Shown: piece by piece, positions 39,368 to 40,843 of the stretch
Layout: the number at the start of each line of letters is the position of its first letter
Numbering within the stretch: the stretch's first letter is position 1
From: an uncultured Campylobacter sp.
GTDB taxonomy: Bacteria; Campylobacterota; Campylobacteria; Campylobacterales; Campylobacteraceae
Assembly (NCBI RefSeq): GCF_937997535.1
Contig: NZ_CALKTT010000093.1
Coordinates: 46,604-110,603 of the forward strand
Reading direction: 5' to 3'
Length of the DNA stretch: 64,000 nt
Made by a program: the position numbers and the translations under genes
The notes under the pieces: generated by a model
Database searches by the model: none
Seen by the model: the letters and a program-made list of their open reading frames with translations, nothing else
Told to the model about the DNA's origin: nothing

Positions 39368-40843
39368 ATGGATAAGGAGCGGTATATTTTTGAGAAATTT
39401 AGATCGAAGCTTAATGGCGATGATTGCGCCGTAATCGGTGAGCGGGCGTATTGCAAGGACCTTTTCGTCGAGGGCGTGCACTTTCGGCGCGGCTGGCTGA
39501 GCCTGCGCGAGATCGGCGCAAAGGCGATGCTTGTAAACATCTCGGATATGATCGCGACCAATGCGCGCGCCAAATACGCTCTGCTAGGGCTTGCGCTGCC
39601 GCGCGAGATCGGCACGCGCGAGATCGACGAGCTGTGCGCGGGCGTGAGCGAGACGGCGCGCGAGTGGGGCATACGGATCATCGGCGGCGACACGATCGGC
39701 TCGGATCGCATCGCGCTTAGCGTGAGCCTGATCGGCAAGTGCAAGCGCCCCGTGTTTCGCAGCGGCGCGCGCGTGGGCGATCTCATCGCGCATACGGGCG
39801 AGCTAGGCGGCGTCGGGCGCGATCTGGCGGTGCTTTTAAGAGATGAAATTTTACCCGCTAGCTCTCAGATGCAAAACCGAAACGATAAAATTTCGTCGCT
39901 GCAAGGCCCAAGCGATGAGGTGCGAAGCCCGGACGATAAAATTTCACCTACGCACGCTAAACTGCAGAGCCTGGACGCTGGAATTTCGGTAGAAAATTCC
40001 GTGTCGCAGAGCGGAGACGATCGCAAGAACCCTACGGCGCAAGATAGCGGGCTGCAAAGCGGCGGCTATGACGACTCTGCCGGTAAAATTTCTACGCAGT
40101 TCGACAACGAAATTTCTACGCAGAGCTTTGATGGCAAAATTTCTGCGCCGAGCCCTGATAACGGAAATTCTACGCAAGATTTGAATGCTTACACCGCGCG
40201 CAGCGTGTCGCAGGGCTCTATAACACAAAATTTAGATACTCACGCTTCGTATGACGACTTGCAGGGCTCCGCGACGCAAAATCGGGACGCGGAGTTTTTT
40301 GAGCAAAATTTTACGACGCAAAATTTGAGCGTAGGAAATTCTATCGGAAATTTTATGGCGCAAAAATCCGCAGCGAATTATACGGCGCAAAGCCTCGCAT
40401 GCGAAAATTCTACGTCGCAAAGCTCTGCAGGCGAAAATCCTGTGCCGGGTAGTGGCTCATATCGCTTGCGCGAGGATCTACGCGCAAAAATTTCAAAGAA
40501 TTCGCGCTTCGTCAGGCCCGTCTTGCGCGATAAGTTTTTTTACAAGGCGGCGAAGTTCATCAGCGCGGCGATGGACATTAGCGATGGGCTCGCGCAGGAT
40601 TTGCCCCGCCTGTTGGAGGCTAGCGGCGTGGGTGCGCGCTGGATCGCCCGCCCTAGCGAGGCTGCGCTGCAAAGCGGCGAGGAGTACGAGATTTTGTTCA
40701 GCTTCGCGCCGAAGTTTTTGCCTAAAATTTATGCGATTGCCGCTAAGGCGGGCGTCTCGATCAATATCATCGCCGAGGTTTGCCCGCGCACGCCGCAAAG
40801 CTCGATGGAATTTCGCGGCAGCTCGCACCACTTCGCGCCTTGA
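39368..40843 (+). CDS. thiL: thiamine-monophosphate kinase with ~215-aa internal low-complexity insertion
   Basis: N-terminal PurM-like domain (DDCAVI.., FVEGVHF, LVNISDM, IIGGDT). C-terminal part (AAMDISDGLAQDL, GEEYEILFSF). The two halves are separated by a Ser/Gln/Asn/Asp-rich block. Confidence 0.85.
   Translation: MDKERYIFEKFRSKLNGDDCAVIGERAYCKDLFVEGVHFRRGWLSLREIGAKAMLVNISDMIATNARAKYALLGLALPREIGTREIDELCAGVSETAREWGIRIIGGDTIGSDRIALSVSLIGKCKRPVFRSGARVGDLIAHTGELGGVGRDLAVLLRDEILPASSQMQNRNDKISSLQGPSDEVRSPDDKISPTHAKLQSLDAGISVENSVSQSGDDRKNPTAQDSGLQSGGYDDSAGKISTQFDNEISTQSFDGKISAPSPDNGNSTQDLNAYTARSVSQGSITQNLDTHASYDDLQGSATQNRDAEFFEQNFTTQNLSVGNSIGNFMAQKSAANYTAQSLACENSTSQSSAGENPVPGSGSYRLREDLRAKISKNSRFVRPVLRDKFFYKAAKFISAAMDISDGLAQDLPRLLEASGVGARWIARPSEAALQSGEEYEILFSFAPKFLPKIYAIAAKAGVSINIIAEVCPRTPQSSMEFRGSSHHFAP

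What the first reader, a model, noticed from the sequence alone, without database searches (positions are those of the whole stretch)
39840..40490. ~215-aa repeat-containing insertion splits ThiL
ThiL homologs are about 300 aa, and this ORF is 491 aa. The conserved N domain ends near ..GELGGVGRDLAVLLRDE, and the C domain resumes near ..SRFVRPVLRDKFFYKAAKFISAAMDISDGL. The block between them is Ser/Gln/Asn/Asp-rich and contains degenerate ~27-nt tandem units at 40083-40185: ggtaaaatttctacgcag.., aacgaaatttctacgcag.., ggcaaaatttctgcgccg.., aacggaaattctacgcaag... These encode GKISTQFD / NEISTQSFD / GKISAPSPD / NGNSTQDLN. The aaatttc core is the intergenic AAATT box. This is the clearest of five such insertions in the window (AddB, HAD, ThiL, beta-propeller, LpxB). 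It points to a lineage-specific process that seeds and expands repeat DNA in frame within essential genes.
Basis: partly seen in the sequence, partly recalled or inferred. Interest (0 to 1): 0.65.

Follow-up and report, generated by a model that had tools for sequence, protein, structure and literature searches.

The report
Hypervariable disordered repeat insert in ThiL
An essential vitamin-B1 enzyme of an uncultured human-mouth Campylobacter carries a floppy, repeat-built stretch of about 213 amino acids in one surface loop. The stretch varies from about 100 to 560 amino acids between near-identical strains and always stays in frame, an unusually extreme bacterial case of a known process (repeat slippage in a tolerant loop).

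Summary
ORF 39368-40843 (+) is thiL, and residues 161-373 (nt 39848-40486) have no counterpart in any ThiL outside one clade of uncultured human-oral Campylobacter.

The block is Ser/Gln/Asn/Asp-rich and predicted disordered. It lies in a loop after helix 148-161 and consists of degenerate 24-30-nt units.

- **Hypervariable:** 117 alleles show 35 insert lengths (97-561 aa). Alleles with identical 278-aa cores differ by up to 365 aa.
- **Always in frame:** all seven distinct indel lengths are multiples of 3. The ThiL frame has no stop in 8.1 kb of insert DNA, against 40-159 in each other frame.
- **Slippage-type borders:** several indels are bounded by 8-13-nt direct repeats.
- **Local origin:** the insert is bracketed by two copies of the ancestral LR(x)(K/E)IS codons, which C. 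concisus has once.

It is not an intein, an intron or a dispersed element.

The "AAATT box" is the RAATTY hexamer, which is over-represented throughout Campylobacter, including species without the insert. Its density in the insert (about 22/kb) equals the intergenic level.

Lineage-specific inserts are also confirmed in HAD and LpxB, and are probable in AddB. LpxB's insert has no motif.

Verdict: a repeat-driven low-complexity expansion in a tolerant loop.

The parts
39368..40843 (+). thiL (thiamine-monophosphate kinase) ORF, 491 aa plus stop
   Evidence: NCBIfam NF004354 at 1.8e-98; Pfam AIRS and AIRS_C. PDB ThiL sequence hits at 4e-26. Foldseek top hits are ThiL structures 3c9u, 3c9r and 1vqv, TM(target) about 0.75.
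39368..39847 (+). Conserved N-terminal part (aa 1-160): AIRS domain and the first strand and helix (148-161) of the C-domain
   Evidence: pLDDT mostly above 90. Core dN/dS is 0.08. Residues invariant across the family alignment are retained.
39848..40486 (+). Lineage-specific insertion (aa 161-373, 213 aa): a Ser/Gln/Asn/Asp-rich, predicted disordered, degenerate coding repeat region
   Evidence: Absent from the nine 272-281-aa homologs aligned. pLDDT is about 30-58 across aa ~161-370 (contiguously below 50 for aa 200-362) with essentially no secondary structure. Self-similarity is 118 against 6.5 in shuffles. RAATTY density is 21.7 per kb. dN/dS is about 0.48.
40487..40843 (+). Conserved C-terminal part (aa 374-491), beginning KISKNSRF
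   Evidence: Aligns to Aquifex ThiL from residue 183 onward. pLDDT is above 90. Its length is constant at 118 aa in 117 of 121 alleles.
39836..39853 (+). Left border copy of the ancestral loop codons: L-R-D-E-I-L (L-R-D-E-I-S in most alleles), containing GAAATTT
   Evidence: C. concisus has a single LR-LAKIS (CTG AGG CTA GCT AAA ATT TCA) at this place.
40478..40495 (+). Right border copy of the ancestral loop codons: L-R-A-K-I-S (CTA CGC GCA AAA ATT TCA)
40082..40187 (+). Four degenerate units of 24-28 nt (GKISTQFD / NEISTQSFD / GKISAPSPD / NGNSTQDLN). The fourth reads the same DNA unit in a shifted phase across the motif (+G/-T).
   Evidence: the repeat finder families D1, D4 and D5; motif list with codon phases.
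40348..40438 (+). 30-nt x 3.1 degenerate tandem array (AAATTNTAYGNCGCAAAG... units; N-F-M-A-Q / N-Y-T-A-Q / N-S-T-S-Q)
   Evidence: TRF score 89, 75% matches; families D3 and D6.
40033..40042 (+). Direct repeat TACGGCGCAA, left end of a 348-nt segment that is absent from the shorter alleles L009 and L010
   Evidence: Pairwise DNA alignments.
40381..40390 (+). Direct repeat TACGGCGCAA, second copy immediately after the 348-nt segment

Best explanation
The block is a translated, intrinsically disordered low-complexity insertion in a surface loop of an otherwise intact ThiL.

Inferred origin: it began as an in-frame tandem duplication of the loop's own codons (L-R-x-K-I-S, whose K-I-S codons AAA ATT TCA happen to contain the genus-wide RAATTY hexamer). 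It then grew by repeated duplication of a unit of about 24-30 nt.

Shown: its length now changes quickly in the population through deletions and duplications between short direct repeats, by replication slippage or unequal or transformation-mediated recombination.

Shown: because the C-terminal domain downstream is needed, only in-frame, stop-free variants persist.

Inferred: the peptide itself is under weak constraint, and most probably acts as a tolerated passenger loop rather than a functional domain. With constraint relaxed, the DNA holds the RAATTY motif at the density typical of intergenic DNA, partly because the amplified unit carried the motif.
For: Insertion and site:
- It is absent from nine 272-281-aa homologs aligned with it.
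- The nearest 50%-identity cluster representatives outside the clade are 272-281 aa.
- It maps between Aquifex ThiL residues 170 and 183.
- AlphaFold gives pLDDT above 90 for both domains, about 30-58 for aa ~161-370 (contiguously below 50 for aa 200-362), with no secondary structure across the block apart from a few residues at its edges.

Translated and in frame:
- No stop in the ThiL frame over 8,112 nt of insert DNA from 14 alleles, against 40-159 stops in each of the other five frames.
- All seven distinct indel lengths (24, 30, 42, 51, 93, 339, 348 nt) are multiples of 3.
- Contigs from runs labelled 'RNA?' cross both borders contiguously. This is weak evidence.

Hypervariable:
- 35 insert lengths (97-561 aa) in 117 alleles.
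- Alleles with identical 278-aa cores differ by up to 365 aa.

Relaxed constraint: dN/dS is about 0.48 in the insert against 0.08 in the core.

Slippage signature: direct repeats of 8-13 nt border the 30-nt (GCGAAAATT), 42-nt (GCGGCGGGAAATT), 51-nt, 93-nt and 348-nt (TACGGCGCAA) indels.

Local origin:
- The borders LRDEIS and LRAKIS compare with a single LR-LAKIS in C. concisus and SEIS in the nearest outgroup.
- Internal units repeat D/G-K-I-S.
- There is no homologous DNA elsewhere in the window.

A DNA unit rather than a peptide: the motif sits in codon phases 1 and 2 in the insert (K/E-I-S and x-N-S/F), whereas phase 0 is commonest in background coding DNA.

Motif density: 21.7 per kb in the insert, 17.1 intergenic, 8.7 coding, and 2.1 and 8.5 per kb in the N- and C-terminal thiL cores.
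Against: - No protein-level evidence shows that the block is present in the mature enzyme.
- The RNA evidence rests on runs whose RNA label is only a guess.
- dN/dS of about 0.48 is below 1. The first ~37 and last ~30 residues of the insert are shared by all alleles, so some function for those parts is not excluded.
- The duplication origin is inferred from 6-residue border similarity only.
- The dS estimate in the insert is inflated by possible misalignment of paralogous repeats.
- Two well-defined indels (24 and 339 nt) show no border repeat, and the 51- and 93-nt indels show one in only a few alleles.
- I could not check whether a second, uninterrupted thiL exists in the genome.
Confidence: 0.75

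Rival explanations
1. Motif-driven expansion. RAATTY is the CtsM-methylated DNA-uptake mark of Campylobacter. Fragments or alleles richer in the motif would be taken up or recombined preferentially, so motif-rich repeats would spread and grow wherever a protein tolerates them (a molecular drive). The insert would then exist because of the DNA motif, not despite it.
For: - AAATTT is about 17-60 times over-represented in every Campylobacter locus with a G+C content near the window's (about 45-56%), about 2-9 times in the A+T-rich species, and about 1 time in Sulfurovum, Arcobacter and Helicobacter.
- Methylated RAATTY is required for DNA uptake in C. jejuni (PMC10046745, PMC8468864).
- Insert motif density is 14-32 per kb in all 14 alleles, against 4.7-5.9 per kb in the core.
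- The motif occurs in several codon phases.
- Two indel border repeats contain AAATT.
- Identical cores with very different inserts fit frequent recombination.
Against: - Insert density (about 22 per kb) is not above the intergenic level (17 per kb overall, up to 38 per kb locally), so no extra drive is needed.
- Species with the same motif density lack the insert.
- Much of the enrichment comes from amplification of one unit with shared flanks (..TCTACGCAR).
- The test for greater conservation of motif columns was weak and biased by how the columns were chosen (0.897 vs 0.852).
- The LpxB insert has no motif.
- Neither ctsM nor RAATTY methylation was shown for this lineage.
Confidence: 0.15
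2. The insert is a functional, selected domain, such as a disordered linker or interaction or regulatory region of ThiL. Its length variation would be adaptive (diversifying selection).
For: - It is retained in all 120 clade homologs found; the shortest is still 97 aa.
- The conserved N-proximal (ILPASSQMQNRNDKISS..) and C-proximal (..SLACENSTSQSSAGENPVPGSGSYRLREDLRA) parts are shared among alleles.
- dN/dS is below 1.
Against: - No fold is predicted and no Pfam family matches.
- A five-fold length range among identical cores is hard to reconcile with a defined function.
- The nearest relatives work without it.
- ThiL is a cytoplasmic enzyme, so there is no obvious target for diversifying selection (established knowledge of the family).
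Confidence: 0.07
3. The block is removed after transcription or translation (an intein or an intron), or it is an inserted mobile repeat element of the Rickettsia palindromic element or MITE type.
For: It splits a conserved enzyme at a single site. Short inverted matches centred on the palindromic motif exist.
Against: - No Hint, intein or endonuclease family at E <= 1.
- The borders are I161 and A373-K374, with no Cys/Ser/Thr or His-Asn junctions.
- No Rfam family at E <= 1 in 39300-41000.
- The RNA fold is not better than shuffles, z = -0.75.
- Strict maintenance of the frame and absence of stops would be unnecessary if the block were spliced out at the RNA level.
- No dispersed copies in 64 kb beyond 13-15-nt motif matches.
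- There are no terminal inverted repeats, and the length is not fixed.
Confidence: 0.03

Closest known systems
Low-complexity, repeat-derived insertions in loops of conserved housekeeping proteins (best documented in Plasmodium falciparum; from my own knowledge, not tested here)
   Same: - Biased composition rich in Asn, Ser and Gln.
- Predicted disorder.
- Placement in a surface loop between conserved blocks.
- Length polymorphism in multiples of 3.
- Degenerate internal repeats, pointing to slippage or unequal recombination.
   Different: - The host is a bacterium with a small genome and a cytoplasmic essential enzyme.
- The variation is extreme (97-561 aa) among alleles whose cores are identical.
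- The repeat core coincides with a genus-specific palindromic methylation and uptake motif.
Bacterial coding tandem repeats / VNTRs (contingency-type loci, mostly in surface proteins)
   Same: In-frame repeat units, strain-to-strain copy-number change, and direct-repeat-mediated indels.
   Different: - Units here are degenerate (about 65-85% alike) and of mixed length (12-42 nt).
- The host protein is not a surface protein.
- There is no on/off switching: all alleles are in frame.
Rickettsia palindromic elements (selfish repeats inserted in frame into protein-coding genes; from my own knowledge)
   Same: Extra peptide segments in tolerant sites of conserved genes; several genes of one lineage are affected.
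   Different: - No dispersed homologous family was found.
- There is no fixed length and no hairpin.
- The ThiL insert derives from local codons.
DNA uptake sequences (Neisseria DUS, Haemophilus USS) and the CtsM-methylated RAATTY uptake mark of C. jejuni
   Same: A short motif is strongly over-represented genome-wide in one genus. RAATTY is the known uptake and methylation motif in C. jejuni.
   Different: The role of the motif in this lineage is untested. The motif alone does not explain the insertion, because other Campylobacter species have the motif but not the insert.

Membership tests
ThiL (thiamine-monophosphate kinase, PurM/AIRS superfamily) | Sequence match to the curated ThiL equivalog model above its cut-off | tested here: met
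   NF004354 scores 329.3 bits against a cut-off of 204, E 1.8e-98.
ThiL (thiamine-monophosphate kinase, PurM/AIRS superfamily) | Two-domain AIRS / AIRS_C fold like that of solved ThiL structures | tested here: met
   Pfam AIRS and AIRS_C. The AF2 model has both domains at pLDDT above 90. Foldseek top hits are ThiL 3c9u, 3c9r and 1vqv with TM(target) 0.73-0.76.
ThiL (thiamine-monophosphate kinase, PurM/AIRS superfamily) | Family-invariant residues retained (D19, D31, S59-D60, G106-G107-D108, D403/D406-G407) | tested here: met
   Invariant and near-invariant columns of the 60-sequence alignment are all present in the window protein. Enzyme activity was not tested.
Low-complexity / intrinsically disordered repeat insertion | Compositional bias and predicted disorder | tested here: met
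   S+Q+N+D+T+G+A+E make up 68% of the insert against 46% of the core. pLDDT is about 30-58 with essentially no secondary structure.
Low-complexity / intrinsically disordered repeat insertion | Located in a loop, leaving the conserved domains intact | tested here: met
   It lies between Aquifex ThiL residues 170 and 183. The flanks are constant at 160 and 118 aa in 117 alleles.
Low-complexity / intrinsically disordered repeat insertion | In-frame length polymorphism with repeat-bounded indels | tested here: met
   35 insert lengths. Seven of seven distinct indel lengths are multiples of 3, and five of them carry 8-13-nt border repeats.
Low-complexity / intrinsically disordered repeat insertion | Relaxed selective constraint relative to the host protein | tested here: met
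   dN/dS is about 0.48 against 0.08. The alignment of repeats is uncertain.
Intein | Hint domain blocks, a nucleophile (C/S/T) at the first intein residue and at the +1 extein residue, and a C-terminal His-Asn | tested here: not met
   No Hint or intein Pfam hit at E <= 1. The borders are E160|I161 and A373|K374. The length varies from 97 to 561 aa.
Self-splicing intron or other structured RNA | Match to a group I/II intron or other Rfam model; a stable conserved RNA structure | tested here: not met
   No Rfam hit at E <= 1. Fold z-score is -0.75. The frame is maintained.
Dispersed in-frame repeat element (RPE / MITE-like) | Multiple homologous copies at other loci; terminal inverted repeats or a palindromic structure; a characteristic length | tested here: not met
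   Only 13-15-nt motif-centred matches elsewhere in the 64 kb. There are no terminal inverted repeats. Only the window was searched, not the whole genome.
RAATTY (CtsM) methylation / DNA-uptake motif | Genome-wide over-representation of the hexamer | tested here: met
   452 AAATTT in 64 kb, 21 times the expectation from base composition. Other all-A/T hexamers number 15-149.
RAATTY (CtsM) methylation / DNA-uptake motif | N6-adenine methylation of RAATTY by a CtsM homolog, and methylation-dependent uptake | not testable with these tools
   Known for C. jejuni from the literature. There is no methylome, and no ctsM search was possible for this uncultured lineage.

The most novel reading that the evidence does not exclude
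In this oral Campylobacter lineage the genus-wide, uptake-linked RAATTY palindrome acts as a selfish driver. Motif-rich degenerate repeats would be preferentially taken up or recombined and also supply slippage microhomology. They would therefore nucleate at native motif-containing codons and inflate in frame inside any tolerant loop of housekeeping genes (ThiL, AddB, HAD, the beta-propeller protein), making 'coding uptake-motif minisatellites'.
Probability: 0.15. Interest if true: 0.75.

Novelty: new variant of a known kind. Interest (0 to 1): 0.45.

Why it matters
The locus shows that a small-genome bacterium can carry a fast-evolving disordered repeat region of up to about 560 aa inside an essential cytoplasmic enzyme. 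Its length is decoupled from divergence of the rest of the gene.

It offers three practical uses:
- A natural experiment on how much loop expansion the PurM-fold kinase tolerates.
- A very high-resolution strain marker for oral Campylobacter in metagenomes.
- A concrete locus for testing whether the RAATTY uptake and methylation motif shapes coding sequence where constraint is relaxed.

For annotation, it warns that length outliers in this lineage are real and not assembly or gene-calling errors.

Tried and rejected
- **Intein:** rejected. No Hint domain and the wrong junction residues.
- **Intron or structured RNA:** rejected. No Rfam hit and fold z = -0.75.
- **Dispersed mobile repeat:** blastn-short of the window insert and the 1.6-kb insert of the long allele L083 against the rest of the window gave only 13-15-nt motif-centred matches. 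The inverted-repeat search found only matches through the palindromic motif.
- **Antisense gene inside the insert:** rejected. Only the ThiL frame is open; the other frames carry 40-159 stops over 8.1 kb.
- **Conservation of motif columns against other insert columns:** a small difference (0.897 vs 0.852, p = 0.018). It is biased by how the motif columns were defined, so I treat it as inconclusive.
- **RNA evidence:** the only runs found are guessed to be RNA and are held as contigs. They cross both borders contiguously, but this is weak. The 'skips 976' joint rests on 21-nt sides and comes from a different thiL.
- **AddB homolog search:** the first try failed. The fragment query returned few close relatives and was uninformative about length variation.
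- **Species name:** no named species carries the insert among the GTDB representatives returned. All are 'uncultured Campylobacter sp.' MAGs from human oral metagenomes.
the array is below TRF's score threshold, though repeat finder recovers it.
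Full report
**1. The observation**

The ORF at 39368..40843 (+) is 491 aa. It matches the curated thiamine-phosphate kinase equivalog NF004354 (329 bits, E 1.8e-98). Residues 1-168 cover profile positions 1-169 of 273, and Pfam finds AIRS (17-124) and AIRS_C (397-448).

In an alignment with nine 272-281-aa homologs that lack the block, plus the short in-clade allele P0048 (375 aa), the conserved sequence stops at ...GELGGVGRDLAVLLRDE (E160). 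It resumes at KISKNSRFVRPVLRDKFFY... (K374). The extra block is therefore aa 161-373, nt 39848-40486, 213 aa.

The block is rich in Ser, Gln, Asn and Asp: 16.7, 8.8, 7.9 and 8.8%, against 7.6, 1.1, 1.8 and 5.4% in the core.

Motif starts are at 40086, 40110, 40137 and 40165, with spacings of 24, 27 and 28 nt. TRF misses them even at minimum score 30, but it finds a 30-nt x 3.1 array at 40348-40438.

Self-similarity of the block is 118 near-matching 15-mer pairs, against 6.5 +/- 4.7 in dinucleotide-preserving shuffles.

**2. Whose gene it is, and how far the insert extends**

The exact protein is found on contigs from human oral metagenomes (PRJEB6997). The close homologs that carry a name are labelled 'uncultured Campylobacter sp.'; most have no name.

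A search of 1.84 billion representative proteins found 12,141 relatives. The closest 50%-identity clusters outside the clade are 272-281 aa. P0121, at 67% identity and 281 aa, comes from Campylobacter sp. JMF/VBCF isolates.

In one-genome-per-species contigs, only a set of uncultured Campylobacter MAGs carries the insert: ten full-length loci (L003-L012 and L015), plus partial matches. C. showae, C. concisus, C. majalis and all other genera have genes of about 816-840 nt.

The insert is therefore specific to one shallow clade.

**3. Where it sits in the protein**

Against Aquifex ThiL (1VQV/3C9T), query residue 159 aligns with chain residue 170 and query residue 379 with chain residue 183. About 12 residues of loop are thus replaced by about 220.

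AlphaFold2 with a 60-sequence alignment gives pLDDT above 90 for both domains. Across aa ~161-370 pLDDT is about 30-58 (contiguously below 50 for aa 200-362), with no secondary structure apart from a few residues at the edges. The preceding helix is 148-161. Foldseek returns ThiL structures first, with TM(target) 0.73-0.76. All alignment-invariant residues are kept.

The enzyme core looks intact, and the block is a disordered loop.

**4. Population behaviour**

- In 117 alleles the flanks are constant (160 and 118 aa), while the insert takes 35 different lengths from 97 to 561 aa.
- Pairs with identical 278-aa cores differ by up to 365 aa. Only 40% of such pairs have the same insert length.
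- Across 14 alleles with DNA, core dS is only 0.18 and core dN/dS is 0.08. The alignable insert columns give dN/dS of about 0.48 (repeat alignment is uncertain).
- Well-defined indels between alleles are 24, 30, 42, 51, 93, 339 and 348 nt, all multiples of 3.
- Several indels are bordered by direct repeats: GCGAAAATT (30 nt), GCGGCGGGAAATT (42 nt), GCGATGAG (51 nt), CCTGCGCG (93 nt) and TACGGCGCAA (348 nt; window 40033-40042 and 40381-40390).
- Over 8,112 nt of insert DNA the ThiL frame has no stop codon, while the other five frames have 40-159 each.
- In the 806-aa allele only the ThiL frame is open.

These results show that the block is read through by the ribosome under selection. They also show that it changes by slippage-type or unequal-recombination events.

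Contigs from runs guessed to be RNA cross both borders without a joint. I count that as weak support only.

**5. Origin**

At the insertion site C. concisus has a single ...L-L-R-L-A-K-I-S-K-N-S-R-F (CTG AGG CTA GCT AAA ATT TCA AAA AAC TCA). The nearest outgroup has ...S-E-I-S-P-H-S-R-M.

In every clade allele the insert is bracketed on the left by L-R-D-E-I-S/L (GAT GAA ATT TCG/TTA). On the right it is bracketed by L-R-A-K/Q-I-S-K-N-S (GCA AAA ATT TCA). Inside, D/G-K-I-S and N-E-I-S units recur.

The simplest reading, which is an inference, is that the loop's own codons were duplicated in tandem and the region between the copies was then inflated by further duplications.

Unit 4 (AACGGAAATTCTACGCAA, N-G-N-S-T-Q) differs from unit 2 (AACGAAATTTCTACGCAG, N-E-I-S-T-Q) by a compensated +G/-T. 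The same DNA unit is therefore read in another phase across the motif. More generally, RAATTY lies in codon phases 1 and 2 in the inserts (K/E-I-S; x-N-S/F), whereas phase 0 is the commonest in background genes.

The evolving entity is thus a DNA unit, not a peptide motif. No homologous DNA exists elsewhere in the window.

**6. The 'AAATT box'**

AAATTT occurs 452 times in the window, about 21 times the expectation from composition. Other all-A/T hexamers occur 15-149 times.

The same density, about 5-8 per kb, is seen in the loci of every named Campylobacter species: C. showae 6.9, C. concisus 8.3, C. majalis 5.8, C. gastrosuis 6.1 and C. novaezeelandiae 5.3. The Campylobacter MAG loci range from about 7 to 10 per kb. 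This holds across G+C contents from 27% to 56%. Sulfurovum, Arcobacter and Helicobacter sit near expectation.

The hexamer belongs to RAATTY, the CtsM-methylated motif required for DNA uptake in C. jejuni. That link rests on the literature and was not tested for this lineage.

RAATTY densities per kb are:
- ThiL insert: 21.7
- Intergenic DNA: 17.1
- ORFs of at least 150 aa: 8.7
- thiL core: 2.1 (N-terminal) and 8.5 (C-terminal)

All 14 alleles show 14-32 per kb in the insert against 4.7-5.9 per kb in the core.

The insert therefore carries the motif at the level of unconstrained DNA. Part of this comes from amplification of one motif-bearing unit with shared flanks (..TCTACGCAR).

Because motif-rich species without the insert exist, the motif cannot by itself explain the lineage specificity.

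**7. The other inserts**

| Gene | Window | Outgroup | Insert (aa) | RAATTY per kb |
|---|---|---|---|---|
| HAD phosphatase | 352 aa | 216 aa | 156-288 | 17.5 |
| AddB-like nuclease | 988 aa | 796 aa | about 345-540 | 22.1 |
| LpxB | 395 aa | 373 aa | about 146-193 | 0 |
| Beta-propeller protein | 367 aa | not compared | 158-232 | 22.2 |

- For AddB the window length comes from a TTG-started ORF call, and its insert bounds were inferred from length and low complexity, not from an alignment.
- The HAD insert is nearly fixed at 352 aa across the clade, and a related group has 255 aa.
- For the beta-propeller protein no comparison with an ortholog lacking the block was made.

This lineage does accumulate in-frame low-complexity inserts in housekeeping genes. 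Only ThiL is shown to be hypervariable and repeat-built, and motif enrichment is not universal among the inserts.

**8. Alternatives**

- **Intein:** no Hint family, and junction residues I161 and A373|K374.
- **Intron or structured RNA:** no Rfam match, and fold z = -0.75.
- **Mobile in-frame element:** no dispersed copies, no terminal inverted repeats and no fixed length.
- **Functional domain:** not excluded for the conserved proximal parts, but disfavoured by the five-fold length range among identical cores.
- **Uptake-motif drive:** not excluded. The data do not demand it, because insert motif density does not exceed the intergenic level.

**9. Verdict**

This is a real, well-supported feature: a translated, disordered, degenerate-repeat insertion that grew out of the loop's own codons. 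It now behaves as a hypervariable coding minisatellite inside an essential enzyme of an uncultured oral Campylobacter clade.

The mechanism class (slippage or unequal recombination in a tolerant loop, with frame kept by selection) is known. The extent of the variation, the host protein and the overlap with the RAATTY motif make it a notable variant rather than a new kind.

Confidence in this explanation is 0.75 and interest is 0.45.

Noticed in passing
whole window; loci L003-L015, L031, L034, L035, L038, L040, L041, L046-L049, L058, L064: The palindrome AAATTT (part of RAATTY) occurs at about 5-8 per kb in the loci of every named Campylobacter species and about 7-10 per kb in the MAG loci, whatever the G+C content (27-56%). 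That is 17-60 times the compositional expectation in the G+C-richer species. Sulfurovum, Arcobacter and Helicobacter are near expectation. This behaves like a genus-wide uptake or methylation motif kept at constant density.
   Followed up: partly
window 12867-13265 (+), HAD-family phosphatase ORF 12402-13460: An in-frame low-complexity insert of about 133 aa splits the HAD_2 and Hydrolase_like parts. The protein is 352 aa here and in most clade members, 255 aa in a related group, and 213-216 aa in other Campylobacter. Unlike the ThiL insert it is almost fixed in length.
   Followed up: partly
window ~5441-6028 (+), AddB-like PD-(D/E)XK nuclease ORF 4409-7375: A low-complexity block of about 190 aa (..AAQQNLALGNFASENSISQNFAQQNS.. 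followed by an E/R/Q-rich part) has 22 RAATTY per kb. The outgroup ortholog is 796 aa against 988 aa here. The ORF start (TTG at 4409) is uncertain.
   Followed up: partly
window 59027-59170 (+), lpxB ORF 58592-59779: A Lys/Asp/Ala/Glu-rich replacement of about 29-48 aa in a loop of LpxB relative to the outgroup (373 aa). It contains no RAATTY site, so not all inserts in this lineage are motif-rich.
   Followed up: partly
window 41552-41776 (-), PQQ_2/BamB-like beta-propeller ORF 41144-42247: A low-complexity block of about 75 aa (..GGTLNSSGSAGENLKNSSENDD..KDGKQTRKKAAAKGK) precedes the weak PQQ_2 match. The protein is 367 aa here and in L083, and 360 aa in L084. No ortholog lacking the block was examined.
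   Followed up: no
L083 10001-12421 and L084 207-2570: Long thiL alleles (806 and 787 aa) share the first part of the window's insert, then add about 900 nt of further x-N-S/x-N-F-rich sequence. This extra sequence has its own small tandem arrays (42 nt x 2.7, 15 nt x 3.1).
   Followed up: partly
window 35826-36876, 44427-45960, 57605-58022: Stretches without an ORF of at least 150 aa, some about 1-1.5 kb long, have very high RAATTY density (up to 38 per kb at 57605-58022). Their content was not examined.
   Followed up: no
window 14377-14450 (+): A single tRNA-Gln (CTG). It is the only Rfam match in the window above gathering score.
   Followed up: yes
window 38446-38916 (-): A 156-aa hydrophobic ORF upstream of thiL with no Pfam match. 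It is present in L001 but replaced by other genes in L083, so this is a variable spot next to thiL.
   Followed up: no
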